Assembly (NCBI GenBank): GCA_964651655.1
Contig: CAZYVS010000001.1
Span: 5,132 to 69,131, forward strand
Length of the DNA: 64,000 bases
Source of the DNA: an uncultured Candidatus Saccharibacteria bacterium
GTDB lineage: Bacteria; Patescibacteriota; Minisyncoccia; Phycocordibacterales; Zambryskibacteraceae
Direction: 5' to 3'
In this document: in pieces, positions 32,268 through 47,957 of the stretch
How the letters are laid out: every line of letters begins with the position of its first letter
How positions within the stretch are numbered: position 1 is the stretch's first letter
Notes under the pieces: model-generated
The model's input: only the letters and a program-made list of their open reading frames with translations
Told to the model about the DNA's origin: nothing
Databases searched by the model: none
Made by a program: the position numbers and the translations under genes

Positions 32268-33280
32268 ACCGGTATTATACGATTTTTTATGAATTCGGAT
32301 ATAATTGCCTCTACCTCACTCGCGTTATTGGTATTCATTAGTTTAACGCGCAAATCTCCTATTCCATCAATGCCAGATAAATAGGCCTTAAAATGTTTTT
32401 TCATCACAGCAAAACTTTTATGCTCGCCGAGTAATTCTTCAAACAATTTTATATGCTTCACCAACACTCGTAACTTTTCTTCTATAGAAGGGGGTTTGTC
32501 CAAGTCGGCAAACAACCACGGATTACCGAAGATGGCGCGTCCAAACATTATTCCGTTACAACCCGTTTCTTCAATCCGCATTCTTGCTTCTTTTAAATTT
32601 CTTACATCACCATTACCCAAGATTAAAGTTTCTTTGCCGGAAGCATTTCGAATCTCGACGGCGCGTTTGACAAATTCCCACCGGGCCGATACCTTGGACA
32701 TCTCTTTCCTAGTGCGAGCATGGATAGTCACTACGGCCACATCTTCTTCAAGAATTTCTGGTAACCAATTTTCAAGCTCTGGTTTGTTATAGCCGATACG
32801 AGTCTTCACAGATACCGGTAGTGAGCCCGCGCCTTCTTTGGCTGCGTTGATAAGTTCTCTAGCCAGCAACACATTCTTCATAAGCGAAGCTCCGGCGCCT
32901 TGTTTCTCCACATTTTTGTCCGGGCAACCCATATTGATGTCAACTCCGTCAAAGCCGAGCTCGCGTGCGAGCTCGGCGGCTTTCTTCATATTTTCGGGCA
33001 CAGAGGTAAAAAATTGCGCTACTATTGGTCGTTCCGCTTCACTATATTCAAGACTTTTCAAAAGCTTTTTTCTGCCTGCTTCAGGCGCTAATGCTAAACC
33101 ATCAGCGGAAACAAACTCTGTCCACATCACATCGGGCCCGCCTCGCCTCGGCTCGCCATCGCGAGTCGAGGCGGACTTACTCACTTCTGCAATAATACGT
33201 CGAAAAGCCGCGTCCGTCACATCGGCCATGGGCGCCAGTACAAAAATTGGTTTACTTAATTTTCCCCAAAATCCAAGCAT
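32264..33280 (-). CDS. dus: tRNA-dihydrouridine synthase
   Basis: 'FVLAPMADVTDAAFRRI', 'NMGCPDKNV' (catalytic Cys) and 'VSVKTRIGYN' match the Dus TIM-barrel. Contains an in-frame insertion 'SKSASTRDGEPRRGGP' encoded by a GC-rich palindromic element. Confidence 0.85.
   Translation of the reverse strand: MLGFWGKLSKPIFVLAPMADVTDAAFRRIIAEVSKSASTRDGEPRRGGPDVMWTEFVSADGLALAPEAGRKKLLKSLEYSEAERPIVAQFFTSVPENMKKAAELARELGFDGVDINMGCPDKNVEKQGAGASLMKNVLLARELINAAKEGAGSLPVSVKTRIGYNKPELENWLPEILEEDVAVVTIHARTRKEMSKVSARWEFVKRAVEIRNASGKETLILGNGDVRNLKEARMRIEETGCNGIMFGRAIFGNPWLFADLDKPPSIEEKLRVLVKHIKLFEELLGEHKSFAVMKKHFKAYLSGIDGIGDLRVKLMNTNNASEVEAIISEFIKNRIIPV
33137..33195. repeat. GC-rich palindromic element (CGCCTCG...GCGAGTCGAGGCGG family) inserted in-frame in dus
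   Basis: CGCCTCGCCTCGGCTCGCC-atc-GCGAGTCGAGGCGG, followed by GGACTTACTCACTTC. A related copy lies at 30805..30880 (CCGCCTCGCGTCGACTCGCC...GGCGAAGTGAGCAAGTCC...GCGAGTCGAGGCGGG). Confidence 0.55.
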
Positions 33281-33318
33281 ATATCCACTCTCTACTATTT
33301 ACTGTTTACTGTCTACTA

Positions 33319-34134
33319 TTATTTAAACTTGTAGAATACTTTATTTGTCGTGCGCAAGTCCAGATACAAAACTTTTTTAAGAAAATCCTTCTGAGCTTTG
33401 ATAGAATCATCAGAGAGAAAAGCCTCTAGATTCGAGTGCAACAAAACAGGATCATCCCCTCTTCTCCATATCAATTGTCCGCCATTAGGCAAAAGCAAAT
33501 TATAATCGTCCGCGGTTATCTTCATAGCCGTTGGCTGAAGATTTAATGTTGGCAAAATTTTTATAAATCCCAAAAGCGACTCAAAGTTCTCCGCAGGAAT
33601 AAGTTGCTTGCCTATAGGATTGCCGATCGGCTCTTCCGTACTATAGACAAAGTAAACTCCGTTTGAAAAAGAGGGGGCGGGCGCAAAGATAAATCCTCCC
33701 TTATCCACAAAGAAACATTCATCTTCAATACAATACAGAGCGAAGGGCATACGCTCTTCAACATTTATGACAAGAGTTTGAAATTTGTCTAGGTTTAAAT
33801 CAACAGATCGAAGTCTTGGAAATTTTTCAATGAGACTTTGCTTAATAGCGCGCCGCGGATAGATAAACGCATTGGCGCGAGGAATCATCCAAAGATAATG
33901 ATTGTCAATCAAACTTTGAACAGCTTGGGTCATCTCTTCCCTATCTGCTACATTTTCTCCAGTTATCATTACCGCTGTAATCAGAAATTTTTCCAAACGA
34001 GAAAGATAAATCAGCGTAAAAACTATAGTCAAGACGCCAATTAGAACAAGGGCAAATTTTATACGCCTTCTTTTTTTCTTTTTCTGATAAAATCCGGCCG
34101 AATTTATAACCCTGCCGCTCGAAACTATTTTCAT
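33319..34134 (-). CDS. ftsQ: cell division protein FtsQ/DivIB-like (POTRA domain)
   Basis: Basic N-terminus then TM ('IKFALVLIGVLTIVFTLIYL'). POTRA-like stretch 'LRSVDLNLDKFQTLVINVEERMPFALY...FVDKGGFIFA'. Confidence 0.55.
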   Translation of the reverse strand: MKIVSSGRVINSAGFYQKKKKRRRIKFALVLIGVLTIVFTLIYLSRLEKFLITAVMITGENVADREEMTQAVQSLIDNHYLWMIPRANAFIYPRRAIKQSLIEKFPRLRSVDLNLDKFQTLVINVEERMPFALYCIEDECFFVDKGGFIFAPAPSFSNGVYFVYSTEEPIGNPIGKQLIPAENFESLLGFIKILPTLNLQPTAMKITADDYNLLLPNGGQLIWRRGDDPVLLHSNLEAFLSDDSIKAQKDFLKKVLYLDLRTTNKVFYKFK

Positions 34135-34180
34135 AAAGAAAGTATATCAAACCTCTCAATAGACCATACAAGCCCTCTTA

Positions 34181-34205
34181 CTGTGCAAAGCTCGACTTTG
34201 CACAG
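34181..34205. repeat. REP-like palindromic element, copy 3
   Basis: CTGTGCAAAG-CTCGA-CTTTGCACAG, 10-bp perfect arms. Immediately 3' of the REP-associated transposase gene. Confidence 0.65.
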
Positions 34206-34868
34206 TTATGGCAATAGTTCTTTGGTAATTTCCTTAGCTGGACTACTGGAAACAAATTTTTTATACGACGAAATGCTTTTTTCTTTAGTATAACGATCCG
34301 TTATAATATCCGTTACTAATAATCCTTCAAACCTATTTTTATCAATACAATCTTGATAACTTGACCATGGATAGAGATGCTCTTTTCCCGTCCATCCTTT
34401 TATTTCGCATGGATGTTTATGAATGTATGCCGAGGTATGCATTAATTGTCTGTCTTCGCCAATATGGACACTTTTATACGGACCTTGAAATAAGTGCCCG
34501 CTTTTTTCATGTCTAGTATTAAAATACTTTGTATATGCAGTCAAAACCCTGTGCATATATTTAGAAATGCCATTATCAACTAATTCACGAATAATTATAT
34601 GAAAATGGTTTGGCGCTAAACAGAAAACTACTAGTTCCACAATCCTCTTTTTTAGGATATCATTCTTTAACTCATCCGTAATGTGCAAAGTCGATCTTTG
34701 CACATTTTGGCGTATTTCTCTGCTTATATTTTTTATAACCACTTCTCCTTGAAAAGCCATGAGGAGAAATAAAAATCTTAAGCGATCTTGATCTGTTTCA
34801 AAGATTGGTTGTTTTTGCATTCCCCTGTTAAAGACATGCAAATATTCTCCGGGCGCATGAAATCGCAT
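34206..34868 (-). mobile_element. IS200/IS605-family Y1 transposase, REP-associated tyrosine transposase (RAYT)-like
   Basis: 220 aa. 'YLHVFNRGMQKQPIF' N-terminus. HUH motif 'NHFHIIIRE'. Catalytic-Tyr region 'TAYTKYFNTRHEKSGHLFQGPYKSVHI'. Flanked on both sides by REP-like palindromes of one family and carries one copy in-frame. Confidence 0.7.
34680..34706. repeat. REP-like palindromic element, copy 4 (inside the RAYT ORF, in frame)
   Basis: AATGTGCAAAG-TCGAT-CTTTGCACATT, 11-bp perfect arms. It encodes 'NVQRSTLHI' within the transposase. Confidence 0.6.
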
Positions 34869-34894
34869 ACCTCTATTGTATACCTATATTTATT

Positions 34895-34917
34895 TGTGCA
34901 AAGTCGAGCTTTGCACA
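34895..34917. repeat. REP-like palindromic element, copy 5
   Basis: TGTGCAAAG-TCGAG-CTTTGCACA. Immediately upstream of the RAYT start. Confidence 0.65.
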
Positions 34918-34989
34918 GTTTTAACAAAGAAGTCCCGCACAGAGTTTGTACATTTCTGTACGAGACTTCTGTGTGGGACCACGATGCAA

Positions 34990-35482: not shown

Positions 35483-35564
35483 ATTTACCTCCCCTAATAA
35501 ACAGTTTTTTACTTTCTGGATGTGATTATATATTAAATAAAAAATATGTCAAATAAAAATTACT

Positions 35565-36902: not shown

Positions 36903-37760
36903 ATGATACAAAATCTGTCACCCAGAGACTTTCCGGAACTTCTCAAAGAAATACCGGATCCTCCCGCGCGATTGCGCTATGAAGGCGCATTGCCAAAAGC
37001 TGGCAACAAACTCCTGGCCATAGTCGGTTCAAGAAAATATACAAGCTATGGAAGAGAGGTGTGCGAATCCATAATCTCCGGGCTTGCCGGTTCTCCTATT
37101 ACAATCGTTTCCGGCCTGGCCCTCGGCATTGATTCCATCGCTCACCGCGCCAGTCTGCGCGCCGGACTTCAAACTATCGCCATCCCGGGTTCCGGTCTTG
37201 ATAGAAAAGTCCTGCATCCCCACTCTCATGTCAATCTCGCTAATGAAATTGTAGAAAGTGGCGGAGGATTGATTTCGGAATATGACGACACCATGCCTTC
37301 GGGCGCCTGGGCCTTCCCGAGGAGAAACAGAATCATGGCGGGAATGTGTCATACCACTTTGGTTATTGAGGCCGAGAGAAAATCCGGGACACTCATCACT
37401 TCGCGACTGGCTACCGAATACAATCGAGAGGTTGGCTGTGTCCCCGGTCCGGTAAATTCTCCCACCTCGGACGGAGCGCATATGCTTATCCGCCTCGGCG
37501 CGGCGCTGATACGCGACGCCAATGATGTGCGAGAACTTCTGGGATTAAAAAGAATGGATGAAAATCCAACTCTTGTAGATATTGAAGAATTGAGTGATGA
37601 AGAAAAAATTTTTATACAAATTTTGGAAAAGTCATGTCCGCGAGATGAACTTATTCGCCAATCAAAACTCGACATAGGCACCGCCAGCGCCACCCTCTCA
37701 CTTCTAGAAATCAAAGGTTTGATTATCGAAGAACTAGGCGAGGTTAGAAGAACGTTTTAA
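36903..37760 (+). CDS. dprA: DNA processing protein A
   Basis: 'KLLAIVGSRKYTSYGREV...IVSGLALGIDSIAHRASL...IAIPGSGLD' matches the DprA/Smf Rossmann domain. C-terminal winged-helix-like tail. Confidence 0.85.
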   Translation: MIQNLSPRDFPELLKEIPDPPARLRYEGALPKAGNKLLAIVGSRKYTSYGREVCESIISGLAGSPITIVSGLALGIDSIAHRASLRAGLQTIAIPGSGLDRKVLHPHSHVNLANEIVESGGGLISEYDDTMPSGAWAFPRRNRIMAGMCHTTLVIEAERKSGTLITSRLATEYNREVGCVPGPVNSPTSDGAHMLIRLGAALIRDANDVRELLGLKRMDENPTLVDIEELSDEEKIFIQILEKSCPRDELIRQSKLDIGTASATLSLLEIKGLIIEELGEVRRTF

Positions 37761-37845
37761 CTCTATTTATACAAAAAACCGCCCATACCTCCCAATAGAC
37801 GGTTCATAATTTGCTACTCGTATATTCTTGCCTTTTTCAAAAATT

Positions 37846-37998
37846 TTTCTTTTTCCTTGGAGTTAATTCTGGATCTGGGCCAACGAGGTGCCGCCATTTG
37901 GGATTAAGATAACAAATCCCCATTACCACAAGGGCAAGAACACCTATAGCTAGTGCTGGTAAAACTACAACCGATAACAATTCCCTTAGAGTATCCAT
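37846..37998 (-). CDS. possible 50-aa membrane peptide (not in ORF track)
   Basis: Hand translation gives MDTLRELLSVVVLPALAIGVLALVVMGICYLNPKWRHLVGPDPELTPRKKKNF, with a single TM helix. Short and unsupported by other evidence. Confidence 0.2.
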
Positions 37999-38100
37999 AC
38001 TTGGAAATCCTCCTCTATCTGGTTCTTGTCGATTTACATTCTAATATCAATTTACGCTAATTTCTACAAGTAATCAAATCTATGTTTAATCAAAGAAAAA

Positions 38101-38128
38101 GGGGCGAGTCAAAAGTTCGACTCGCCCC
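38101..38128 (-). terminator. intrinsic terminator of ORF 38151..38804
   Basis: GGGGCGAGTC / GACTCGCCCC 10-bp perfect stem. On the minus strand it is followed by TTTTTCTTTG. Confidence 0.55.
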
Positions 38129-38150
38129 ATCTGGGGCTCGCAACGAGCAC

Positions 38151-38804
38151 TCAGTCTGCCAAGCGCGGTTCGTAGAGATTTCGCGCCTGAACGATCAAGT
38201 GCACTTGCTCGAGCTTGAGCGGAGAATGATCCGGTGCCTTAAGAACGCCCTCACCGAGCGTATGGTTGTCGCCGAAGATCCGAGCCCTCTCGGTGTAGAG
38301 ACCGTTGAGCTTGTGTCGCGTCCCGAACATCGGTTGGGACTTCACGTTCTTCGGCTCCTGCTTTGTACCGAGACAGAGCAAGCTTGCTTGTTGAATCTCG
38401 TCCCATGTATGCGGGATCGGAACAGCGAAGATGTCGCCCTGTCGTTTCGAGGCCACTCGGAAAGCTTGCTCGAATTTCGTGATGACCTCCGGCTTCAGCG
38501 CGGCGTAGAACGAATCGTCGCCTTCTCGCTGAAAAGCACGAAACGGCTCGTCTCGCAAACGGACCAGGAACGGACGTTCGTCGGTGCCTCCAAACCAGTA
38601 CTGCGTTTCGGACCCACCGCTTATGATACGGAGCAGAAACTGCTCGCCGTTCATGAGAGGGAAGAACTCCGACTCGGGGTTGTCTGGCAGAACGATGTCT
38701 GTACTTTCTCGGAAAGGCGGAGCGTGTGCACCCCCCTTGTAGCCGAACTGGAGCTTAGCCATTCCGGCTTTCTTCGGAACAGTTCTCATCTTGAAGAGTT
38801 TCAT
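38151..38804 (-). CDS. hypothetical protein (in GC-rich island)
   Basis: 217 aa. Local GC is clearly higher than the surroundings. No recognisable motif. The overlapping 370-aa plus-strand ORF is Arg-rich and looks like an antisense artefact. Confidence 0.45.
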   Translation of the reverse strand: MKLFKMRTVPKKAGMAKLQFGYKGGAHAPPFRESTDIVLPDNPESEFFPLMNGEQFLLRIISGGSETQYWFGGTDERPFLVRLRDEPFRAFQREGDDSFYAALKPEVITKFEQAFRVASKRQGDIFAVPIPHTWDEIQQASLLCLGTKQEPKNVKSQPMFGTRHKLNGLYTERARIFGDNHTLGEGVLKAPDHSPLKLEQVHLIVQARNLYEPRLAD

Positions 38805-38819
38805 CTCATGCCTCCTTTC

Positions 38820-39053
38820 TTAGGCGTGGAGTTGGGGAGCGATCGGGAAGAACAGTTTCGTCCTGCACGCAGGACAGAAGACATAATCACCCGGACCGCT
38901 CGGGTCGGTCTTGTAACAATGACTGCAAAAAGCAACACCGCACGAAGGACAGTTGTAGTCGCAATTCTGCTCTCCTACTTTCGCCCCACAATTAGGGCAA
39001 TCGCGAGGAGAAACAACAACCAGCTCTTTCTGCATCGGTTTCTCCTTTCTCAA
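38820..39053 (-). CDS. small zinc-ribbon protein (in GC-rich island)
   Basis: 77 aa. 'CPNCGAKVGEQNCDYNCPSCGVAFCSHCYKTDPSGPGDYVFCPACRTKL' has multiple CxxC pairs. Confidence 0.45.
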   Translation of the reverse strand: MRKEKPMQKELVVVSPRDCPNCGAKVGEQNCDYNCPSCGVAFCSHCYKTDPSGPGDYVFCPACRTKLFFPIAPQLHA

Positions 39054-39415
39054 AGGACTGTTTTACCGCAATTTTCTAATCGCAGAGCCTACCGGACACC
39101 ATGTCCGATATTGCCGCTTATCGTAGCATGTATTGGTTATGCAGTCAAGGTTCATCGCGTACACTTTTGGCGGGTTTTCGTTTATAAAAAATAATACCAA
39201 ATACTTGCGATCGCAAATAAATGGTAGGACCGGAGTCCCAAAAGACGATCTTTTGGGACATAAAATTTTGCTCTCAATAAATCAAATTTAACGACTACGT
39301 TATAATCTCACGACCGTGAATTAATAACGTATTAATTTATTACACAACTTAAAATCAGAAAAACTTTTTAATAATAAATTTGCAAATAGAAAGTTTCTGT
39401 AGTATCTGTTAAGCA

Positions 39416-41656
39416 ATGCGTTTACTTATAGTAGAGTCGCCGTCGAAGGCCAAGACTATCGAAAAATATCTTGGTAAAGATTTTCGCGTGGTGGCTTCTA
39501 TCGGTCATATCAGAGACCTTCCTAAATCAAATAGAGCCGCCATTGATATACCGGCCGGCTTCGTGCCGCATTACGAAGTGGTGAAAGGAAAGGAGAAAGT
39601 AATTTCCGAAATTAAATCACTGGTAAAAAAGGCCGACGAAGTCTTGCTTGCCACCGACCCAGACCGCGAGGGTGAGGCCATTGCCTGGCACGTAGAAGAA
39701 ACGGTTGGGCTCAAGAATCCAAAACGCGTTGTTTTTTACGAAATTACCAAAGAAGCCGTGGAGGAAGCTATTGAACACCCGAGAGAAATCGATACCAATT
39801 TGAGAGAAGCGCAAGAAGCCAGAAGAGTGCTGGATCGCCTAGTAGGCTACGATCTCTCTGGACTTATCTGGAAAAAAGTGCGTTACGGTCTGTCGGCCGG
39901 CAGAGTGCAATCCCCCGCCCTTAGAATTATCATGGAACGCGAAAGAGAAATTCGCGCGTTTGAGTCAATCACTTTCTGGAAAATTTTTGCAAATTTGGAA
40001 TCCAAAGTCAGACCTTTAAAAGATTCTCAAGGTCTGACCTTTGAATGTTCGGTTGAGCCTACAGACCAGAAAGAAGTGGAAAACATTCTTGAAGCAGGCA
40101 GAAATGGTTCGTGGCAAATAACAGATATTAAAGAAACGAAGGTGGCGCGCGCTCCGCGCGCGCCCTTCATCACCTCAACTCTGCAACAGGCGGCCAGCTC
40201 CCGACTTGGCCTCGCACCGTCTCGCACCATGTACTTTGCCCAAAGACTCTATGAAGCTGGACATATTACTTATATGCGCACAGATTCTACAAATCTTGGA
40301 GCAGCCGCGCGCAAGGAGGTTGAAGAATTGATAAAGAAAAAATACGGAGAAAGTTATTTTGAATCGCATGTTTTTACTAAAAAATCAAAAAACGCCCAAG
40401 AAGCCCACGAAGCCATCAGACCTACGCACATGAAAGTGGAAATGGCCGGAGTGAGCGACGGGGAGAAGAAACTCTACGGTTTAATCTGGCAAAGAACCAT
40501 ATCCAGCCAGATGAAATCAGCGGAAATTATGCGCACGAAGGTGGTGGCGAATATACAAGAAGTTGAGCTTCCACTTGGAAGCTCAACTTCCAAGCGAGAT
40601 TTAATACCTGATTTCTGGCTCAATGGTTCGCGCATCATCTTCGACGGCTGGCTTAAGGCGGACCGCCTATCGGCCGGCGAAGATATTGTCTTACCGAAAC
40701 TTGATATCGGCGAACCATTAAAACTGATAGACATGAATGTTGAGCAAAAAGAAACCCAACCGCCAGCCAGATACTCGGAAGCGGGTCTGGTTAAGGAACT
40801 TGAGAAACGCGGTATCGGTCGACCTTCCACTTATGCTTCTATTATCAAAACTTTGGATGATCGCGGATATGTAGAAAAAAGGGCTAAAGCGCTCTATCCA
40901 ACTGATACCGGCGAGGTAGTCAGCACTTTTCTCGAAGAACATTTTCCTACTTATATCAGCGACTCCTTCACCGCCGAAATGGAAGACGAATTGGATGATA
41001 TTGCCAACGGCGCACGTACCTATAGGAAAACCCTGTCAGACTTTTATACACCATTTCTAAAAGCGGTGGTAGAAAAAGAAAAAGTTCCAAAAGTCACCAA
41101 TCTTGGCCAGGCGCCAGAGGACTTGAAGTGTCCTGTCTGTGGAGCTAACATGATTATCAAGCTTGGCCGAGGCGGCAAGTTCCTGTCATGTGAAAAGTAT
41201 CCGGAGTGTCAGGGAGCCCGCACCATGGAAGGTAAAGAGCTTGAGGGGCCTAAAGATACCGGAGAAATCTGTCCAAAATGTGGCAAGGGAAATCTGACCA
41301 CTCGCGAGGGTAAGTTTGGAATGTTCACCACCTGTTCGCGTTTTCCAAAATGCAAATTTGTTAAAAAGGATAAAGAACAAGAAAAGGCGAACTCCACCGG
41401 AGTAGAATGTCCGATTTGTAAAAATGCCCTGCCTGCCGGCAGGCAGGGCTTCATATCGGAAAGACGCGGACGGTTCGGAGTTTTCTACAGCTGTTCAAAT
41501 TATCCCGATTGCAAATATGCCATCAAGGCCAAGCCCACCGGGGAAGTTTGTAAACTCTGCGATAGTTTAATGATGGAAGGCACTAAAACTATTCCAGAAA
41601 GATGCTCAAATAAAAAATGCCCAAATCACAATCCGCACAAAACCAGCCAGATGTAA
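39416..41656 (+). CDS. topA: DNA topoisomerase I
   Basis: TOPRIM 'MRLLIVESPSKAKTIEKYLG'. Active-site region 'GHITYMRTDS'. C-terminal tandem C4 zinc ribbons ('CPVCGANM...CEKYPEC', 'CPKCGKGNL...CSRFPKC', 'CPICKN...CSNYPDC'). Contains an in-frame 32-nt perfect palindrome. Confidence 0.9.
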   Translation: MRLLIVESPSKAKTIEKYLGKDFRVVASIGHIRDLPKSNRAAIDIPAGFVPHYEVVKGKEKVISEIKSLVKKADEVLLATDPDREGEAIAWHVEETVGLKNPKRVVFYEITKEAVEEAIEHPREIDTNLREAQEARRVLDRLVGYDLSGLIWKKVRYGLSAGRVQSPALRIIMEREREIRAFESITFWKIFANLESKVRPLKDSQGLTFECSVEPTDQKEVENILEAGRNGSWQITDIKETKVARAPRAPFITSTLQQAASSRLGLAPSRTMYFAQRLYEAGHITYMRTDSTNLGAAARKEVEELIKKKYGESYFESHVFTKKSKNAQEAHEAIRPTHMKVEMAGVSDGEKKLYGLIWQRTISSQMKSAEIMRTKVVANIQEVELPLGSSTSKRDLIPDFWLNGSRIIFDGWLKADRLSAGEDIVLPKLDIGEPLKLIDMNVEQKETQPPARYSEAGLVKELEKRGIGRPSTYASIIKTLDDRGYVEKRAKALYPTDTGEVVSTFLEEHFPTYISDSFTAEMEDELDDIANGARTYRKTLSDFYTPFLKAVVEKEKVPKVTNLGQAPEDLKCPVCGANMIIKLGRGGKFLSCEKYPECQGARTMEGKELEGPKDTGEICPKCGKGNLTTREGKFGMFTTCSRFPKCKFVKKDKEQEKANSTGVECPICKNALPAGRQGFISERRGRFGVFYSCSNYPDCKYAIKAKPTGEVCKLCDSLMMEGTKTIPERCSNKKCPNHNPHKTSQM
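40559..40594. repeat. perfect 15+15-bp palindrome (GAAGTTGAGCTTCCA-CT-TGGAAGCTCAACTTC), extended by CAAG to complete an overlapping CTTGGAAG/CTTCCAAG hairpin, inside topA in frame
   Basis: Encodes 'EVELPLGSSTSK'. A related core CACTTGGAAGCTCAAC(C/T)TCCAAG recurs inside miaA (47481..47503), which also encodes 'PLGSSTSK'. Confidence 0.6.
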
Positions 41657-43161
41657 ACATCCTCGACAAAATCGTGAGAAGCATGTCGGGTTCTTCCGCC
41701 GAGGAGATAGCAATGGTAAAGAAAGCTTTTGCCTTCGTCGAGCGGGCGCACCTTGAACACAAAAGACTTTCGGGTGAACCGTATCTCAAACATTTATCGG
41801 AAACGGCCCAAATCTTGACGGATCTGGGAGCGGGAGGAGCCACGATAGCGGCCGGATTACTCCACGATACCATCGAGGACGTCGGTATAAAAAGAGAAGA
41901 AATCGTCAAAGAATTTGGGGAAGAAATTGCTTTTCTCGTCGAAGGCGTAACCAAACTCGGACATCTCAAGTACAGGGGCATCGATCGTCACAACGAGAGT
42001 CTGCGAAAACTTTTCGTCGCCATGTCGGAGGACATCAGGGTGCTTCTTATTAAACTTGCAGACCGCCTGCACAACATGAGAACGCTCTCTTATGTGCCAA
42101 AAGATAAACAAAGACGAATAGCGGCTGAAACGCTTGAAATTTATGCGCCTATCGCCTACCGGTTAGGCATTAGGAAAATTAATCGCGAACTTGAGGACCT
42201 TTCTTTCCCCTATGTTTATCCCAAGGCCTATGAAGAAATGACGAAGGCGCTCAAAGAGCGGCATCAAGATAGAATTGAAAGTTTAGAGAAATTCTCCCAC
42301 TCTGTTATCAAAACACTCGTGAAAGAAGGACTGACTACGGCTAAGACAGAGTATCGAGTGAAGGGTCTTTATAGTCTCTACAAAAAATATCTTAGGTATG
42401 ACAAAGACTTGGAAAAAATTTACGATGTTAATGCCATACGCATTATGGTAGATTCCGTTGCCGATTGTTATCAAGCGCTGGGAGCCATACACGGACGTTG
42501 GAGACCCCTGCCTCATCGCATTAAAGATTATATCGCTTTCCCAAAACCGAACGGCTATCAAGCTCTGCATACGACCGTCTTTGTCGGCGATGGCAATATT
42601 GTGGAAGTTCAAATCAAGACCCACGAAATGTACCGGTATTCCGAATACGGTGTGGCTTCCCACCTTTTGTACAAAGCAGACAAGCAGGGCAAAAAAATTT
42701 TGGATTGGATATACGCTCTCTTGCCCAAACTAAGAAGAACCGGCAACCCAAGCGCTCTTCAGGAAAAAGATGTGCCCAAATGGATTTCGGAATTGGCATC
42801 ATACCGAGGACCGGCAAAAAATCAACGCCTCTTCCGCGAACGATTGGCCAGCGATTTTTTCAATTATCGCATATTTGTTTTTTCGCCCAAGGGCGACGTG
42901 GTAGACCTGCCGATCGGCTCAACACCCATTGACTTCGCCTATTCGATACACTCCAATATCGGCGACCACATGACAGGCGCTAAGGTCAATGGCAAATTAG
43001 TCGCGCTAGATACGGAGCTTCACAACGGAGATATTGTCTTTATCATGACAAGCGAAACCGCCAAGCCCAATCGCAAATGGCTCGATATGACCAAAACCTC
43101 AATGGCGCGCCGCCATATCCGTCGCGAACTTATCAAGCTAAGAGAATCGGAAAACTCTTAA
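41617..43161 (+). CDS. rel: bifunctional (p)ppGpp synthetase/hydrolase, RelA/SpoT family (short, no ACT domain)
   Basis: HD domain 'HLEHKRLSGEPYLKHLSETAQIL...GLLHDTIEDV'. Synthetase 'GLYSLYKKY...NAIRIMVDSVADCYQALGAIHGRWRP...DYIAFPKPNGYQALHTTV'. TGS 'GDVVDLPIGSTPIDFAYSIHSNIG'. The start may be an internal Met, since 41617 overlaps the topA end. Confidence 0.85.
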   Translation: MPKSQSAQNQPDVNILDKIVRSMSGSSAEEIAMVKKAFAFVERAHLEHKRLSGEPYLKHLSETAQILTDLGAGGATIAAGLLHDTIEDVGIKREEIVKEFGEEIAFLVEGVTKLGHLKYRGIDRHNESLRKLFVAMSEDIRVLLIKLADRLHNMRTLSYVPKDKQRRIAAETLEIYAPIAYRLGIRKINRELEDLSFPYVYPKAYEEMTKALKERHQDRIESLEKFSHSVIKTLVKEGLTTAKTEYRVKGLYSLYKKYLRYDKDLEKIYDVNAIRIMVDSVADCYQALGAIHGRWRPLPHRIKDYIAFPKPNGYQALHTTVFVGDGNIVEVQIKTHEMYRYSEYGVASHLLYKADKQGKKILDWIYALLPKLRRTGNPSALQEKDVPKWISELASYRGPAKNQRLFRERLASDFFNYRIFVFSPKGDVVDLPIGSTPIDFAYSIHSNIGDHMTGAKVNGKLVALDTELHNGDIVFIMTSETAKPNRKWLDMTKTSMARRHIRRELIKLRESENS

Positions 43162-44084
43162 AGGCTAAAATTGGCGACCGAATAGAGAGATTCGTCGTCT
43201 CCGCTACCAGTCAGAGACGGCGCCTCCGCTGTCGAAAAGTTTTGTTCCGGTTGATTCTTGATTTTCTCGTCAGAAATAATTCTATCCAACAAGGCGCGCA
43301 GATCGTCTTTGTTGAAGAAATCAATCGTCACCCGGCCGCCTTCTTCCTTTTTTTCTATCCGCACCCGAGTGCCAAGTTTTTCTTTGAATTGATCTTCAAT
43401 GTCTATCAGTTCCTGGTCAATAAGTTTGCGAGCGCGCTCCACCGCAATATGGCGAGCAATACCTTCGGCTTCCCTGACATTGAGTTTTTTAAAAATAATT
43501 TCTTTGAAAAGAGTCTCCTGCTCCTGCGGTCGGTCTATCAGCATCATCAGCGGACGGGTGTGGCCTTCGGTAATCTTGTTTTCCGAGAGCGCATTAATAA
43601 TGTAATCCGGAAGCGTAAGAATGCGCAAAGAATTTGAAACATATTCGCGGCTCTTGCCGACTTTCTTGCCTATCTCATGGTGTTTGAAATTAAATTCTTT
43701 TACCAATCGATCAAAGGCTCGCGCCCGGTCCACCGGACTAAGATCCTCGCGTTGGATATTCTCGATGATAGCGAGCTCAAGTTTCATCAAATCCGTTTCT
43801 TCACCGGTGCGGATAAGTACCGGCACTTGCGCGAGACCGGCTAGGCGAGCGGCGCGAAGGCGCCGCTCGCCGGCTACCAATTCGTACTCTACGCCGATAC
43901 CGCCGTCTTCTTTTATTATTTCATTACGCGTCACGACCAGAGCCTGAAGCACGCCATATTGGCGAATTGAATCCGCGAGACTTCTTAATTGAACCTCGTC
44001 AAATCCGCGGCGCGGTTGAAATGGGTTTGGTTTGATTTTATCCACCTCTATCCAGAAAATGGAATCGTTATAGAATCGTGACAT
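43158..44084 (-). CDS. parB: ParB/Spo0J-family partition protein
   Basis: 'KPNPFQPRRGFDEVQLRSLADSIRQYGVLQALVV' is the ParB N-terminal CTPase/nuclease-like box. 'GLAQVPVL' follows. HTH region present. Confidence 0.8.
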   Translation of the reverse strand: MSRFYNDSIFWIEVDKIKPNPFQPRRGFDEVQLRSLADSIRQYGVLQALVVTRNEIIKEDGGIGVEYELVAGERRLRAARLAGLAQVPVLIRTGEETDLMKLELAIIENIQREDLSPVDRARAFDRLVKEFNFKHHEIGKKVGKSREYVSNSLRILTLPDYIINALSENKITEGHTRPLMMLIDRPQEQETLFKEIIFKKLNVREAEGIARHIAVERARKLIDQELIDIEDQFKEKLGTRVRIEKKEEGGRVTIDFFNKDDLRALLDRIISDEKIKNQPEQNFSTAEAPSLTGSGDDESLYSVANFSL

Positions 44085-44297: not shown

Positions 44298-47021
44298 ATG
44301 GGTTCTGCAACAGAAATTGCGTGGCACACAAAACCGGTCTCAAAAGTTTTAGAGATATTAAAATCGAGTGAACACGGACTCTCAAGCATTGAGGTAAAAC
44401 ATAGGCTTGAAGAGAATGGGCCAAATGTTTTGCCGGAGTCAAGGCCGGATAATGTTGCTCTTATCTTTCTGCGGCAATTTCAGAGTCCATTAATTTATAT
44501 TCTCCTGGCCGCAGCTTTGGCGGTATTTTTTATAGGAGAGAAAACCGATGGTATTGTTATTATCACAGTTCTCATTTTGAATGCCGTTGTCGGCTCTATT
44601 CAAGAAGGTCGGGCCAGAAATACTCTCCTGGCCTTAAAGCAATACGTGGAAACAAAGGCGGTAGTTTTGCGGGACGACAAAGAAATTATTATTGCCGATT
44701 CGCAGGTGGTGGTAGGAGACATTATCTTACTCCAAGGAGGCGAAAAAATAGCGGCCGATGCAAGAATCATATCCGCACAAAATCTCAAGATTGACGAATC
44801 TTCTCTTACCGGAGAATCAGGGGCGGTGCATAAAACGTCTGACACCTTGGATAATCCAAATCTGACTGCGCAAGAAGAACGCAACATGCTATTCAAAGGC
44901 ACTCACGTGGTCGCCGGCAATGGCAAGGCCATAGTGGTAAGAACCGGGGTGGAAACAATTATCGGTAAAATAGCCAAGGAAGTATCTTTAATTGAGAAAG
45001 AGATCCCGCTTAAAACCAACATTCGCAACCTCTCAAGAATAATTATTCTAATTACGGTGGGTGTCAGCGCTCTTTTATTTATCGTCGGTATTATCTCCGG
45101 CAAATCTATAATTGAGATGCTTGTCTTTGTTATTTCAATTTCGGTTTCCATCATTCCAGAGGGCCTGCCAGTTGCTATTACCGTCATATTGGCCACCGGA
45201 GTTTGGAGGATGAGTAAGAGAAACGCCCTAATTAAACGTCTGCAAGCGGTAGAAGCGCTCGGACAAGCAAAAGTCATCGCAGTCGATAAGACGGGAACCA
45301 TTACCAAAAATGAAATGGTGGTTCAAACCATTCATGTGGACGGTCAGATGTTTGAGATTGACGGAGTCGGATATGAACCGAAGGGTGATATAAGAATCAA
45401 CAAACAAATTATAAATCCGCCCAATCACCCGGAACTTCTACTTTGTGGTAAAATCGCCGCTCTCTCGGCCAGCGCCAGAGTCATGCTTCAAGAAAAAACT
45501 ACGGAATGGAAAATCTCCGGCGACCCAACGGAAGCGGCCATGGTGGTGCTCGCCAGAAAGTTGGGTTTCAATAGAGATGATCTGGAACACGAATCACCGC
45601 TCATGGCAGAGATACCTTTCGACTACAACACTAAATATCATGCGACTCTACATAAAGATAAGGAAACAAATTTCTTAGCAGTAGCCGGCGCGCCCGAAGT
45701 AATTTTAGAAAATTCAAATAAAATTTGGCAAGATAACAAAGAAATAGGCCTCTCTCCCGAACGCAAAGAAGAATTGATATCTATATTCTTCGACATTTCA
45801 AGAAGAGGGCTTAGAGTTCTGGCACTGGCTTCAAGTTCGCGCGGCTCTGACGATTTAAATCAGGAAGATGTAATGAATCTGACCTTTACCGGATTCTGCG
45901 GTCTCAAGGATGCCTTGCGTCTCGAAGTTAAGGAAGCCACCAAACGCGCCATAGCGGCCGGCATGAGAGTGGTGATGATCACCGGCGACCATCAAACCAC
46001 GGCAGAAGCCATAGCCAAGGAAGCGGGTATTTATAAAACCGGTGATACCAGCCTGACCGGTGTTGAGATAGATAAATTTTCGGACGGCGTGCTTAAAGAA
46101 TACTTGACCAAGACTTCGGTATTTGCCAGAGTCACACCGGAACACAAACTCCGCATTATCAATGCTTATAAAGCCAGAGGAGAAATTATTGCTATGACCG
46201 GCGACGGAGTAAATGACGCGCCATCTCTGGTGGCGGCAGATCTTGGAGTGGCAATGGGTAAGATTGGTACAGAAGTGGCTAAGGAAGCTTCTGATATTGT
46301 CCTCTTGGATGATAATTTCGGCAGTATCGTTTCGGCAATAGAGGAAGGCAGAAACATTTACAAAACAATCACAAAAGTAGTTCTTTATCTTCTGTCTACC
46401 AGTCTGGGTGAACTGCTGGTGATTACGGGAGCCATTTTTGTAGGTCTGCCCTTACCACTTTTACCGGCACAGATCATATGGTTAAACTTCGTCACGGACG
46501 GATTCTTCACTGTCGCTCTTGCCATGGAGCCGAAGGAGCACGGCTTGTTGAGCAAAACATTTAAGAAGCCGGGGAGATATCTGGTGGATACTTTGATGGG
46601 GCAGAGAATATTGCTTATGGCGTTACCAATGCTTGTGATAACTCTTGTGTTGTTTCAAAATTATTTTGAAACAGATTTGGCCAAGGCGTGGACAATCTCT
46701 CTCACTGTCCTCGCCGTCTTTCAATGGTTTAATGCTTGGAATTGCCGTTCCGAAAATAAGTCAATCTTTCAGGCAAATATTTTCGAAAACAGATTTATGG
46801 CGGGCGCTACCTTGGCGGCTTTATCGTTCCAGATACTCGCCGTCTATAATCCCTTGTTCCAAAGATTTTTGCATACCGTACCACTTGCTCTTTCCGATTG
46901 GTTGGTTATTATTGCCCTGGCAACTTCTATTATCTGGGTAGAAGAAGTTAGAAAATTTTTATGGCGCAACAAAAAATCCTCGTTATCGTTGGTCCCACCG
47001 CTTCAGGTAAGTCAAGCCTAG
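44298..47021 (+). CDS. cation-transporting P-type ATPase (type IIA/IIB-like)
   Basis: 'DKTGTITKN' phosphorylation motif. 'MITGDHQTTAEAIA' and 'MTGDGVNDAPSLVAADLGVAMG' hinge motifs. Ten TM helices. 907 aa. Confidence 0.85.
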   Translation: MGSATEIAWHTKPVSKVLEILKSSEHGLSSIEVKHRLEENGPNVLPESRPDNVALIFLRQFQSPLIYILLAAALAVFFIGEKTDGIVIITVLILNAVVGSIQEGRARNTLLALKQYVETKAVVLRDDKEIIIADSQVVVGDIILLQGGEKIAADARIISAQNLKIDESSLTGESGAVHKTSDTLDNPNLTAQEERNMLFKGTHVVAGNGKAIVVRTGVETIIGKIAKEVSLIEKEIPLKTNIRNLSRIIILITVGVSALLFIVGIISGKSIIEMLVFVISISVSIIPEGLPVAITVILATGVWRMSKRNALIKRLQAVEALGQAKVIAVDKTGTITKNEMVVQTIHVDGQMFEIDGVGYEPKGDIRINKQIINPPNHPELLLCGKIAALSASARVMLQEKTTEWKISGDPTEAAMVVLARKLGFNRDDLEHESPLMAEIPFDYNTKYHATLHKDKETNFLAVAGAPEVILENSNKIWQDNKEIGLSPERKEELISIFFDISRRGLRVLALASSSRGSDDLNQEDVMNLTFTGFCGLKDALRLEVKEATKRAIAAGMRVVMITGDHQTTAEAIAKEAGIYKTGDTSLTGVEIDKFSDGVLKEYLTKTSVFARVTPEHKLRIINAYKARGEIIAMTGDGVNDAPSLVAADLGVAMGKIGTEVAKEASDIVLLDDNFGSIVSAIEEGRNIYKTITKVVLYLLSTSLGELLVITGAIFVGLPLPLLPAQIIWLNFVTDGFFTVALAMEPKEHGLLSKTFKKPGRYLVDTLMGQRILLMALPMLVITLVLFQNYFETDLAKAWTISLTVLAVFQWFNAWNCRSENKSIFQANIFENRFMAGATLAALSFQILAVYNPLFQRFLHTVPLALSDWLVIIALATSIIWVEEVRKFLWRNKKSSLSLVPPLQVSQA

Positions 47022-47875
47022 CTGTTCGATTAGCAAAAAAATTCAACGGAGAGATAATTTCCGCCGACTCGCGACAAGTCTATAAAGGTCTCGATATTGG
47101 TACGGGTAAAATCACTAAACAAGAGATGCGGGGCGTGCCACATCACCTGCTCAACGTTGCCAATCCTAAAAAACAATTCTCGGTGTCAGAATACAAAACT
47201 CTGGCTGAAAATAACTTACGATATATCGTAAGTTGTGGAAAATTGCCTATAGTTGTTGGGGGAACGGGTTTTTACATAGATACCCTTACCGGAAGAATTA
47301 ACTTTCCTAACGTGCCGCCGGACAAGAAACTTCGAGAGAAACTTTCTCAAAAATCTATTGAGACACTTTTTGAAATGTTGATGAAAAAAGATCCGACTAG
47401 AGCCAAAACAATCGACAAATATAACAAGGTTCGTCTGATCCGCGCTCTAGAGATTATCAAGAAAATTGGCTCCATTCCCCCACTTGGAAGCTCAACCTCC
47501 AAGTCTCGGTACCGCTTCATATTTATCGGATTAAAGCCAGATGACCTCGACAAAAGAATTTACAAAAGATTACTTATAAGATTTAACGGTATAATTCGTG
47601 AAGGCAAAAAACTGCATAAACAAGGACTGTCATACAAACGTATGTATGAACTTGGGCTTGAATACCGATATATTGGTATGTATTTGCAAAATAAAATCTC
47701 TAAAAAAGAAACAATGGATAAACTTTATTTGGCAATCAAACACTACGCCAAGCGGCAAATGACCTGGTTTAAGCGAAATAAAGAAATTAGATGGTTTACC
47801 ATGAGCTCTGTCGAAGGGTTCAAACCGGAAACATACAAAGAGATAGAAAAATATACTGGACGTATGCTAGGATGA
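46961..47875 (+). CDS. miaA: tRNA dimethylallyltransferase
   Basis: '[45 protein letters not shown]' P-loop N-terminus, typical of MiaA. Contains an in-frame 'PLGSSTSK' element. Confidence 0.85.
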   Translation: [304 protein letters not shown]

Positions 47876-47955: not shown

Positions 47956-47957
47956 AT

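What the first reader, a model, noticed from the sequence alone, without database searches (positions are those of the whole stretch)
33137..47503. Short palindromic elements inserted in-frame inside essential genes (dus, topA, miaA, and the RAYT itself)
Four coding sequences contain perfect or near-perfect palindromes that translate as extra peptide. In dus, a GC-rich element at 33137-33195 encodes 'SKSASTRDGEPRRGGP' next to the conserved 'PMADVTD' box. In topA, a 15+15-bp perfect palindrome at 40559-40590 encodes '[12 protein letters not shown]'. In miaA, the related core CACTTGGAAGCTCAACCTCCAAG at 47481-47503 also encodes 'PLGSSTSK'. In the RAYT gene, a REP-like copy at 34680-34706 encodes 'NVQRSTLHI'. 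Two different proteins acquiring the same 'PLGSSTSK' octapeptide from the same nucleotide element is hard to explain except by element insertion. The precedent is the Rickettsia palindromic elements that insert in-frame into ORFs.
Basis: partly seen in the sequence, partly recalled or inferred. Interest (0 to 1): 0.7.

Follow-up and report, generated by a model that had tools for sequence, protein, structure and literature searches.

The report
Coding palindromic repeats in a CPR bacterium
Short hairpin-forming DNA repeats of the REP type sit in frame inside housekeeping genes of this tiny-genome groundwater bacterium (Candidatus Zambryskibacteria) and its relatives and appear to be translated as extra protein loops, which resembles the palindromic elements of Rickettsia but has not, as far as I could find, been described in this phylum.

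Summary
The window comes from a Candidatus Zambryskibacteria MAG (Parcubacteria, CPR).

- **Dus:** it carries a 39-nt GC-rich hairpin that 116 of 120 closest homologues lack.
- **TopA:** it carries three palindromic inserts, not one. They lie at indel hot spots that switch between empty and filled among about 41 related lineages. One pair of relatives differs by exactly 21 nt with identical flanks.
- **Shared 24-nt PLGSSTSK core (topA and miaA):** it belongs to a family, ACTTGG-n-CCAAGT. Its variable inner stem is genome-specific in two genomes, and this shared variant points to spread or homogenisation within a genome.
- **RAYT:** it is a genuine Y1 transposase, flanked by REPs and carrying one internal REP.
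- **Caveats:** the miaA and RAYT copies are not length insertions. They overlie native segments and covary at the same position in orthologues.
- **Doublets:** many long hairpins are inverted REP doublets, like REPINs.
- **Pairing:** stem pairing is strictly Watson-Crick with no wobble excess. The conserved entity is therefore DNA, not RNA or peptide.

Best explanation: REP/RPE-like palindromic elements inserted in frame and then kept as hairpins. Whether RAYT mobilises them, and how the arms stay matched, is inferred. This is a new variant of a known kind and is of moderate to high interest.

The parts
32264..33280 (-). dus (tRNA-dihydrouridine synthase) host gene
   Evidence: Pfam Dus 197 bits. 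PDB match to 1vhn. 100% identical to an NCBI Zambryskibacteria protein.
33143..33181 (-). GC-rich hairpin insert in dus (family F5). It encodes SKSASTRDGEPRR, and the stem is at 33144-33173.
   Evidence: Absent from 116 of 120 closest homologues. It is a 14-aa gap against Thermotoga Dus. DNA fold z -3.4. Low-pLDDT loop in the AF2 model.
30808..30872 (+). Intergenic GC-rich hairpin related to the dus insert (shares CGCGAGTCGAGGCGG). It lies upstream of a GIY-YIG ORF.
34206..34868 (-). RAYT-like Y1 (HUH) transposase gene
   Evidence: Pfam Y1_Tnp 39.1 bits, cut-off 23. NCBIfam REP_Tyr_transpos 30.4 bits, below its cut-off of 80. Syntenic orthologues in L099 and L107.
34896..34916 (+). REP (family F1, GTGCAAAG-5nt-CTTTGCAC) about 30 nt upstream of the RAYT start
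   Evidence: Conserved in 3 genomes.
34183..34203 (-). REP (F1) immediately after the RAYT stop codon
34680..34706 (-). Internal REP (F1) in frame in RAYT, encoding NVQRSTLHI
   Evidence: Perfect 11-bp stem, z -5.9. Conserved in the L099 and L107 orthologues. No length difference from homologues, and close homologues covary as VQ[HSR][SR][TMK]LH.
18755..18775 (-). REP (F1) in frame near the C-terminus of the ORF ending at 18683; it encodes VQSSILH
19119..19139 (-). REP (F1) just upstream of the likely start of the same ORF
39416..41656 (+). topA host gene (746 aa)
40001..40044 (+). topA site 2: inverted doublet of AAGGTCnGACCTT units (family F2), encoding SKVRPLKDSQGLTF
   Evidence: Empty in many relatives. 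The same family is read in other frames in Dus of L082 and L088.
19177..19216 (+). F2 doublet, probably intergenic (5' UTR)
59379..59415 (-). F2 doublet in frame in an SMC-like ORF, encoding KRSNLEDLERSDL
40559..40594 (+). topA site 3: family F3 element (ACTTGGnnnn-loop-nnnnCCAAGT plus an inverted partial copy), encoding [12 protein letters not shown]
   Evidence: Perfect 15+15 palindrome, z -7.4. 15 related loci have only 6 aa here.
47480..47503 (+). miaA copy of the F3 unit, encoding PLGSSTSK. The hairpin is degraded.
   Evidence: 23 of 24 nt identical to the topA copy. F3-type hairpins occupy this same loop in L097, L119, L123 and L126.
41426..41449 (+). topA site 4: family F4 palindrome GCCCTGCCTGCC|GGCAGGCAGGGC. 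The 21-nt insert encodes ALPAGRQ.
   Evidence: L088 and L106 differ from L097, L099 and L149 by exactly 21 nt, with identical flanks.
54080..54100 (-). Second F4 copy, in frame in a nifS-like gene, encoding GLPAGKA
   Evidence: 7-aa insertion relative to the L119 and L136 orthologues.
47211..47236 (+). miaA palindrome with a GATATATC centre (family F6), encoding NNLRYIVSC. It is in situ, with no indel.
   Evidence: z -6.6. No gap against PDB MiaA proteins. Peptides covary in homologues: NLRYIVS, SLQYIVT, VTMIYHS.
58857..58884 (+). Intergenic F6 palindrome that shares TACGATATATCGTA with the miaA copy
46961..47875 (+). miaA host gene
   Evidence: Pfam IPPT 205 bits.

Best explanation
These are REP-type palindromic repeats, occurring as single units of about 18-25 nt and as inverted doublets of about 35-55 nt, like REPINs. 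They behave as non-autonomous mobile or copy-paste DNA in Zambryskibacteria genomes, which are about 92% coding.

Copies land everywhere. Inside genes, only copies that are a multiple of three, free of stop codons and placed in tolerant surface loops survive. The survivors are then translated as short extra loops, as with the Rickettsia palindromic elements.

Once resident, a hairpin persists. Its arms stay Watson-Crick complementary while the sequence drifts, and copies at different loci of one genome stay alike.

Shown here:
- the inserts are lineage-specific;
- both arms are absent from empty alleles;
- the elements form families that occur in several genes and in intergenic DNA;
- one DNA family is read in different frames in different genes;
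- a RAYT gene flanked by REPs is present.

Inferred, not shown:
- that a RAYT/HUH single-strand transposase moves the elements;
- that resident hairpins attract new copies, which would explain the hot spots and the doublets;
- that arm-to-arm templated correction maintains the stems.
For: Lineage-specific inserts
- Dus: 116 of 120 homologues are empty at the site.
- TopA: four hot spots flip independently among about 41 non-redundant lineages.
- Filled and empty alleles with 100% identical flanks differ by exactly 21 nt and show no target duplication longer than 1 nt.
- L088 and L097 TopA are 90.8% identical at the nucleotide level yet differ at 3 of the 4 sites.

Families in several genes
- F4 lies in topA and in a nifS-like gene of the window, both as 7-aa inserts. 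It also lies at another topA site in L096 and in Nomurabacteria TopA.
- F2 is read as SKVRP..QGLT, LRSDL..QGPTL, KGQTL..QGLTL or SRSDL..LRSDP in different genes.
- F3 occurs in topA and in miaA. The inner 11 nt differ by 1 within WIN and within L123, against a mean of 6.0 between genomes; only 1 of 43 between-genome pairs differs by 1 or less.

RAYT
- It is flanked on both sides by REPs in three syntenic genomes.

Structure of the elements
- 26% of hairpins with stems of at least 14 bp have arms that are themselves palindromic, against 0.6% in the null.
- In F3, 97.3% of cells are paired, 6 of 10 pairs change on both sides, and there is only one G-U.
- Stem mismatches are A-C 25 against G-T 12, so wobble pairs are not enriched.

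Controls and context
- Coding hairpins of at least 14 bp occur at 0.075 per kb here and 0.012 per kb in topA loci of other bacteria.
- The inserts map to low-confidence loops between beta strands in the AF2 models.
- The host proteins recur in independent assemblies.
- Precedents are intragenic REPs and RPEs (PMC3733652).
Against: - No transposition has been observed, and no enzyme is tied to families F2 to F6. The only RAYT in reach is flanked by F1 alone.
- Copy numbers seen are low, 2 to 5 per family in 64 kb, and the full genome was not available.
- Several palindromes add no length and overlie conserved protein motifs: miaA RYIV, RAYT VQ..LH, ParB GERRLRAARL and nifS-like KDIIFTxGG. Simple insertion does not explain these.
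- Only one clean filled/empty pair was found. At the other sites the flanks have also changed.
- The elements lack the GTAG and CGTC tags of the two large REP superfamilies.
- The TopA structure model is poor, with mean pLDDT 67.
Confidence: 0.68

Rival explanations
1. There is no mobile element. The palindromes are made and kept in place by replication template switching, which perfects quasipalindromes and creates inverted duplications. This lineage may lack the nucleases that normally suppress such events. Shared sequences between loci would then come from ectopic conversion.
For: - In-situ palindromes with no length change overlie conserved motifs. The ParB box is a perfect 12-14 bp stem in 16 loci, and there are also the nifS-like KDIIFTxGG, miaA NLRYIVS and RAYT VQ..LH cases.
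- Covariation is strictly Watson-Crick with almost no G-U.
- A-C mismatches outnumber G-T.
- At topA site 1 the left arm, VAEA, is native sequence.
- Template switching is known to create and maintain hairpins (PMC8794818). It was also proposed for the Nematomorpha mitochondrial coding palindromes (PMC6649704).
Against: - At the clean filled/empty pair, and in Dus, both arms are absent from the empty allele, so the insert is not a copy of flanking sequence.
- Near-identical units of 20 nt or more occur at unlinked loci in different genes and in intergenic DNA.
- A REP-flanked RAYT is present.

This process probably contributes to maintenance. It is unlikely to be the sole origin.
Confidence: 0.2
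2. The hairpins are selected functional nucleic-acid structures inside genes. They could be protein-binding sites, transcription pause or attenuation signals, mRNA stability or processing signals, or DNA uptake signals. On this reading their persistence at fixed sites reflects function.
For: - Hairpins persist at the same position in orthologues with compensatory changes, in the miaA loop and in RAYT.
- The stems at topA site 2 and the REPs at RAYT are conserved well above the surrounding coding DNA.
- An internal REP in the RAYT gene could be an autoregulatory target. This is speculation.
Against: - Occupancy is patchy. Each site is empty in many close relatives, so no individual copy is needed.
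- Different families occupy the same site.
- There is no excess of G-U pairs and no strand asymmetry of the kind expected for RNA structures.
- No Rfam family matches.
- Copy numbers and sequence diversity do not fit uptake signals.
Confidence: 0.08
3. The peptides are adaptive or ancestral protein features, and the DNA palindromy is incidental. Alternatively, the inserts are assembly artefacts.
For: The inserts lie in surface loops, where variation is common.
Against: - The same DNA family is translated in different frames in different proteins.
- Stems are perfect at synonymous positions.
- Most orthologues lack the peptides.
- Identical proteins recur in independent assemblies and sources, and dozens of metagenomes show the same pattern.
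Confidence: 0.03

Closest known systems
Rickettsia palindromic elements (RPE; Ogata et al. 2000 and 2002, Claverie & Ogata 2003, cited from PMC3733652)
   Same: Families of palindromic repeats are inserted in frame in housekeeping ORFs of a small genome. They are compatible with protein function, encode extra surface peptides, and also occur in intergenic DNA.
   Different: - The phylum is different, and sequence similarity to RPEs was not tested.
- The units here are much shorter, 18-55 nt. From memory, RPE-1 is about 100-150 bp.
- RPEs are reported to decay (PMC6649704 discussion). Many stems here stay perfect and covary.
- The same loop is reused by different variants.
- A REP-flanked RAYT is present here.
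REP/REPIN-RAYT systems (REPtrons) of Proteobacteria
   Same: - A Y1/HUH transposase gene is flanked by its own REPs.
- REP hairpins are 20-40 nt and occur as singlets and as inverted doublets that fold into a longer hairpin.
- The RAYT is single-copy and syntenic among relatives.
   Different: - Classical REPs are extragenic and number in the hundreds per genome.
- Most carry a GTAG or CGTC tag (PMC3733652). No such tag is present here.
- Most long copies here are inside genes.
- One REP lies inside the RAYT coding sequence itself.
- The NCBIfam RAYT model scores below its cut-off.
Intragenic GTAG/CGTC REPs in Opitutus terrae, Rickettsia conorii, Thauera and others (Di Nocera et al. 2013, PMC3733652)
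   Same: REP monomers and dimers interrupt ORFs in frame and encode about 20-30 aa. They often lie in DNA replication and repair genes, and some genes are hit twice.
   Different: The sequence families and the lineage (CPR) are different. There are no tags. This work documents hot-spot turnover, covariation and genome-specific variants, which that survey did not describe.
Coding palindromes in Nematomorpha mitochondrial genes (Mikhailov et al. 2019, PMC6649704)
   Same: Perfect inverted repeats overlie conserved coding sequence without changing its length. They are gained and lost between species. The authors argue that arm identity is actively maintained, possibly by template switching. This matches the in-situ cases here: ParB, the nifS-like gene, miaA RYIV and the RAYT REP.
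   Different: That system is mitochondrial, with repeats up to 284 bp and no dispersed multi-copy families or transposase. Here most long hairpins are true insertions.
Bacterial MITEs made by DDE transposases (such as Correia and other TIR/TSD elements; PMC10969869)
   Same: They are small non-autonomous repeats that can sit in frame in genes.
   Different: MITEs have terminal inverted repeats around an internal region and make target-site duplications. The clean 21-nt insertion here is a bare palindrome with no duplication longer than 1 nt.

Membership tests
REP-RAYT system (REPtron) | Gene for a Y1/HUH tyrosine transposase of the RAYT type | tested here: met
   Pfam Y1_Tnp scores 39.1 bits against a cut-off of 23. 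The NHFH (HUH) motif and the conserved Tyr (SAYIH) are visible in alignment A4. The NCBIfam REP_Tyr_transpos equivalog scores only 30.4 against a cut-off of 80, so this is a divergent subfamily.
REP-RAYT system (REPtron) | The RAYT gene is flanked by copies of the palindromic repeat | tested here: met
   GTGCAAAG-5nt-CTTTGCAC lies on both sides of the gene in WIN, L099 and L107.
REP-RAYT system (REPtron) | The same repeat is dispersed at many other loci in the genome | tested here: inconclusive
   The 64-kb window holds 5 copies, 2 of them away from the RAYT. The whole genome was not available.
REP-RAYT system (REPtron) | The RAYT is single-copy and vertically inherited | tested here: inconclusive
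   There is one copy in the window, at a syntenic position in 3 of the related loci. It is absent from the syntenic locus L001.
GTAG / CGTC REP superfamilies | A conserved GTAG or CGTC tetranucleotide at one end of the hairpin | tested here: not met
   The flanks of the F1 copies read A(C/A)TGTGCAAAG...CTTTGCACA(G/A/T)T, with no GTAG or CGTC. The F3 flanks are CCAC/GT.
REPIN (REP doublet forming a hairpin) | Two REP units in inverted orientation, separated by a short spacer and folding into one long hairpin | tested here: met
   26% of hairpins with stems of at least 14 bp have arms with an internal stem of at least 6 bp, against 0.6% in the null. Examples are L137, L123, L093, L124 and L139, and the window elements at 19177 and 40001.
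Rickettsia palindromic elements | A palindromic repeat family inserted in frame in ORFs, with orthologues that lack the insert | tested here: met
   Dus, three TopA sites and the nifS-like gene. This is met as a mode of behaviour.
Rickettsia palindromic elements | Sequence homology to RPE-1 to RPE-8, and occurrence in Rickettsia | not tested
   No RPE sequences were at hand. The host is a CPR bacterium, so membership by descent is not expected.
MITE (DDE type) | Terminal inverted repeats plus a target-site duplication | tested here: not met
   The 21-nt insert is a bare palindrome with identical flanks and at most 1 nt of ambiguity.
Known structured RNA families (Rfam 15) | A match at the gathering score | tested here: not met
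   Only 10 tRNAs were found in the window.

The most novel reading that the evidence does not exclude
Zambryskibacteria, and to a lesser degree other Paceibacteria, may have a genome-wide process that creates, perfects and homogenises DNA palindromes even inside essential coding sequence. It would combine arm-to-arm conversion with copying between loci. Hairpins would then behave as self-perpetuating structural parasites that reshape protein loops. They would recur at the same hot spots and would overwrite conserved motifs such as the ParB box, the nifS-like motif, miaA RYIV, and the RAYT gene's own internal REP. This would be a bacterial counterpart of the Nematomorpha mitochondrial coding palindromes, coupled to a REP/RAYT system.
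Probability: 0.3. Interest if true: 0.78.

Novelty: new variant of a known kind. Interest (0 to 1): 0.62.

Why it matters
**Annotation and phylogenomics.** CPR bacteria make up a large part of bacterial diversity and have tiny, gene-dense genomes. If REP-like hairpins routinely sit inside their housekeeping genes, this explains many lineage-specific indels in their proteins. These indels bear on alignment, phylogenomics and structure prediction.

**Mobile DNA.** The finding extends the "selfish DNA in proteins" phenomenon from Rickettsia to a distant, uncultivated phylum.

**Mechanism.** The dense presence/absence turnover at four TopA sites, and the strictly Watson-Crick covariation, give a natural data set for a long-standing question. 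That question is whether hairpin stems are kept by selection or by a templated mutational process.

**Translation test.** The predicted tryptic peptide [18 protein letters not shown] makes translation of the insert directly testable in groundwater metaproteomes.

Tried and rejected
- **Genome-contig scan.** I ran it with the full TopA alignment. The scan was wasted apart from L001 and a set of control loci. The metagenome scan was then run with a clade-specific 41-aa TopA segment and worked.
- **Dispersed exact 13-mers within loci.** The result was dominated by chance matches. It was useful only for spotting the second F4 copy and the tRNA duplications.
- **PDB sequence search for the RAYT.** No hit.
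- **Rfam.** Only tRNAs.
- **AF2 model of TopA.** Quality was low (pTM 0.37), so I used it only to note that the three inserts fall in stretches with pLDDT below 50. No fold search was attempted.
- **Considered and rejected:** inteins or introns (far too short, in frame, no splicing motifs), CRISPR or TIGR arrays (no arrays), DNA uptake sequences (too diverse, too few copies), terminators (they lie inside long ORFs), assembly artefact (the same alleles recur in independent assemblies).
- **Literature searches** for CPR or Patescibacteria together with palindromes, REP or RAYT found nothing relevant.
Full report
**Source and genes**

The window's TopA, Dus and MiaA are 100% identical to proteins of an NCBI MAG named Candidatus Zambryskibacteria (Parcubacteria, candidate phyla radiation). 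Each also occurs in an independent Logan assembly. The region holds these genes:
- dus, 32264-33280 (-);
- a Y1/HUH transposase gene, 34206-34868 (-);
- topA, 39416-41656 (+);
- miaA, 46961-47875 (+).

**Step 1: is the observation real?**

Yes.

| Element | Coordinates | Stem | DNA fold z |
|---|---|---|---|
| topA | 40559-40590 | perfect 15+15 | -7.4 |
| RAYT internal copy | 34680-34706 | 11 bp | -5.9 |
| dus | 33144-33173 | 13 bp, 1 mismatch | -3.4 |
| miaA core | 47480-47503 | 7 bp | -1.9 (10 of 200 shuffles fold as well) |

- The 24-nt core shared by topA and miaA differs at one base. No match is expected by chance.
- The repeat GTGCAAAG-5nt-CTTTGCAC has five copies in the window, against 0 expected.
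- Across the window, 20 hairpins (stem at least 10 bp, at most 1 mismatch) lie in coding sequence. Codon shuffles give 5.1 on average and at most 10 in 30 shuffles.

**Step 2: are they insertions? Dus and TopA**

Dus:
- SKSASTRDGEPRR (33143-33181) is a gap against Thermotoga Dus.
- It is missing from 116 of the 120 closest homologues, which are 68-78% identical. Four homologues carry other short inserts at the same point.
- The syntenic relative L001 has a different GC-rich hairpin there.

TopA:
- An alignment of 46 Zambryskibacteria proteins shows four indel hot spots. The window fills three of them with palindromes:
  - 40001-40044, [14 protein letters not shown];
  - 40559-40594, [12 protein letters not shown];
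  - 41426-41449, ALPAGRQ.
- A clade-specific metagenome scan gave about 69 related loci, 732 kb in total.
- In these loci each site flips independently between a short empty state and filled states. The filled states are near-perfect hairpins with stems of 12-24 bp and many different sequences.
- At site 3, 15 loci have only six residues.
- At site 4, 62 of 69 loci are empty.
- The cleanest event is at site 4. L088 and L106 differ from L097, L099 and L149 by exactly 21 nt, CCCTGCCTGCCGGCAGGCAGG. Fourteen flanking codons are identical, and there is no target duplication beyond one ambiguous G.
- L088 and L097 TopA are 90.8% identical in nucleotides yet differ at three of the four sites. Turnover is therefore fast relative to point substitution.

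**Step 2, continued: miaA and the RAYT**

These two do not behave as simple insertions.
- The miaA core lies in a loop that is no longer than in Bacillus or E. coli MiaA. This loop is hypervariable in 120 homologues.
- Many homologues carry L-G-[S/N/H]-x-[T/V/M/A]-S-K in that loop. DNA from the loci confirms hairpins of the form CTTGGAnnn-loop-nnnTCCAAG at that same position, with stems up to 21 bp.
- The RAYT segment NVQRSTLHI adds no length relative to homologues. The two orthologues keep the REP nearly unchanged. Close homologues show VQHSMLH, VQSSTLH and VQSRTLH, which implies covarying stems.

**Families and anatomy**

The elements fall into families with conserved and variable parts.

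| Family | Sequence pattern | Where found |
|---|---|---|
| F1 | GTGCAAAG-5nt-CTTTGCAC | both sides of the RAYT, inside it, and at 18755 and 19119 |
| F2 | AAGGTCnGACCTT, singlets and doublets | topA site 2, 19177, 59379; Dus of L082 and L088 |
| F3 | CCAC-TTGGnnnn-loop-nnnnCCAA-GT | topA site 3 and the miaA loop |
| F4 | CCTGCCTGCC\|GGCAGGCAGG | topA site 4; nifS-like gene at 54080-54100 (a 7-aa insert against orthologues); topA site 2 of L096; Nomurabacteria TopA |
| F5 | GC-rich, CCCGCC...GGCGGG | dus, 30808, ParB of L082 |
| F6 | GATATATC centre | miaA 47211, 58857, 12732, miaA of L141 |

- The arms of many long hairpins are themselves palindromes. An internal stem of at least 6 bp occurs in 26% of cases, against 0.6% in shuffled arms. 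These are therefore inverted doublets of REP units, the REPIN architecture.
- F2 is translated in at least four frame and orientation combinations in different proteins. What is conserved is the DNA, not a peptide.

**Within-genome identity**

In the two genomes where F3 occupies both topA and miaA, the variable inner 11 nt differ by one base:
- WIN: AAGCTCAACTT against AAGCTCAACCT;
- L123: AAACCGAGTTT against AAACCGGGTTT.

topA/miaA pairs from different genomes differ by 6.0 on average, and only 1 of 43 differs by one or less. This is the signature of recent copying or homogenisation between loci of one genome.

**DNA or RNA?**
- Over 15 F3 units, 97.3% of stem cells pair and 6 of 10 pairs show changes on both sides. 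No shuffle out of 500 reaches this. Only one G-U pair occurs.
- Among all stem mismatches, A-C (25) outnumbers G-T (12).
- A selected RNA structure would tolerate wobble pairs. The pattern instead fits a DNA palindrome or a templated copying process.
- No Rfam family matches the hairpins.

**Controls**
- Coding hairpins of at least 12 bp occur at 0.145 per kb in Zambryskibacteria loci. The figure is 0.086 in other Paceibacteria and 0.053 in topA-centred loci of unrelated bacteria. For stems of at least 14 bp the figures are 0.075 against 0.012.
- Hairpins are still about seven times denser in intergenic DNA. This is what selection against genic copies would produce.

**Protein context**
- In the Dus model (pLDDT 87.8), the insert is a low-confidence excursion between helix 24-37 and strand 51-53.
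- The TopA model is poor (pLDDT 67). Its stretches below pLDDT 50 include 199-204, 384-394 and 671-675, which are the three inserts. Each lies between beta strands.
- All 50 complete topA genes recovered keep an open frame.

**The transposase**
- The ORF passes Pfam Y1_Tnp but not the NCBIfam RAYT equivalog.
- It is syntenic in WIN, L099 (88.6% identical) and L107 (80.8%).
- In all three it has a REP upstream, a REP just after the stop codon and the internal REP. All are far better conserved than the surrounding sequence.
- This is the canonical REPtron layout. The GTAG and CGTC tags of the large REP superfamilies are absent.

**Mechanism**

I commit to this account. REP-type palindromic elements spread by a copy-paste route. 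Genic copies survive only when they are in frame, free of stop codons and in tolerant loops. Resident hairpins are then maintained.

Shown:
- insertion of both arms together;
- multi-locus families;
- frame-independent reuse of one DNA family;
- genome-specific variants;
- a REP-flanked RAYT.

Inferred:
- mobilisation by an HUH enzyme acting on single-stranded hairpins. This is consistent with the lack of a target duplication;
- preferential insertion next to or into resident hairpins. This would explain hot spots, doublets and replacement;
- arm-to-arm templated correction that keeps stems perfect.

The in-situ palindromes over conserved motifs show that insertion is not the whole story. These are the ParB GERRLRAARL box in 16 loci, the nifS-like KDIIFTxGG, miaA NLRYIVS and the RAYT REP. 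A template-switching process of the kind proposed for Nematomorpha mitochondria (PMC6649704; PMC8794818) probably acts as well.

**Comparison with known systems**
- In behaviour this matches the Rickettsia palindromic elements, and the intragenic REPs that Di Nocera et al. catalogued in Opitutus terrae, Rickettsia conorii and Thauera (PMC3733652). In-frame REP insertion is therefore a known kind.
- The new points are:
  - the host lineage, for which I found no report in the held literature;
  - the very short units;
  - repeated use of the same loops;
  - maintained, strictly Watson-Crick stems;
  - genome-specific variants shared between genes;
  - a REP inside the RAYT gene;
  - the coexistence of inserted and in-situ coding palindromes.

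**Verdict**

The finding is real and mostly interpreted correctly. It is a new variant of a known kind, with interest about 0.6.

Noticed in passing
window 43844-43871 (parB, 43158-44084, minus strand); also L001, L096, L097, L099, L101, L107, L112, L120, L124, L134, L137, L142, L144: The conserved ParB motif GERRLRAARL is encoded by a perfect 12-14 bp-stem palindrome, GGCGAGCGGCGC-4nt-GCGCCGCTCGCC, in 16 loci. It uses GC-rich Arg and Ala codons in a genome of 44% GC. This means nucleotide-level conservation at synonymous sites. It could be a maintained coding palindrome or a protein-binding site of the parS kind.
   Followed up: partly
L119 19111-19145 and L136 17538-17568 (orthologues of window 53440-54432): In a nifS-like cysteine desulfurase, a 15-17 bp perfect palindrome overlies the conserved KDIIFTxGG motif with no change in length. 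One arm is the conserved motif. The other arm is the variable sequence just upstream.
   Followed up: partly
window 47883-48282: A small GIY-YIG ORF (47958-48218) is preceded by a 35-nt copy of the 5' half of tRNA-Trp (47883-47917) and a perfect 13+13 palindrome (47917-47942). The intact tRNA-Trp (48209-48282) overlaps the ORF's end. This looks like a mobile GIY-YIG cassette inserted in or beside the tRNA gene.
   Followed up: partly
window 30118-30930: Two more GIY-YIG ORFs (30118-30366 and 30541-30786) flank tRNA-Gln (30467-30538). Upstream of the second there is a 15-nt copy of the tRNA 5' end (about 30910-30925) and the GC-rich hairpin 30808-30872, whose arms match the dus insert. This may link family F5 to the GIY-YIG cassettes.
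   Followed up: partly
window 37760-39377: A 1.6-kb segment between dprA and topA is absent from the syntenic locus L001. It carries a 217-aa ORF (38151-38804, minus strand) with no Pfam match. Several palindromes border it (38099-38130, 39195-39226, 39235-39259, 39296-39331).
   Followed up: no
topA site 1, for example L097 597-650, L107, L124, L137, L139 (empty in the window at 39695-39724): A fourth TopA hot spot carries SDGERKSNH-type or SKSEASN-type inserts. Here the hairpin's left arm (GTCGCTGAAGC, VAEA) is native coding sequence. This fits local inverted duplication better than insertion of a complete element.
   Followed up: partly
L123 1131-2088; also L001, L119, L126, L131, L139: There are intergenic clusters of another palindrome family built around GTTCTTGAGAAC, for example CATTCTAATGTTCTTGAGAACATTAGAATG. 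L123 has four copies within 1 kb.
   Followed up: no
L011 11122-11154; L054 11176-11218; L004 and L054 TopA Zn-finger region: Family F3 (ACTTGGAAGC-CGA-GCTTCCAAGT), a nested doublet, and the F4 peptide LPAQAG also occur in coding sequence of other Paceibacteria and Nomurabacteria. The phenomenon therefore extends beyond Zambryskibacteria.
   Followed up: partly
window 19268-19858 and 15922-18708: Secreted or repeat proteins carry long internal direct repeats. A 261-nt unit recurs at 19406 and 19667, and a 600-nt unit recurs at 17329 and 17929. These are unrelated to the palindromes.
   Followed up: no
window 32954-32977 (dus), 56091-56125 (rbfA-like), 314-346 (ORF 158-649): Three further coding palindromes lie in the window. 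AELARELG in Dus shows no indel against PDB homologues. The 314-346 hairpin shares the inner CAAAGCTCGGCTTTG with the F1 REP at 19119.
   Followed up: no
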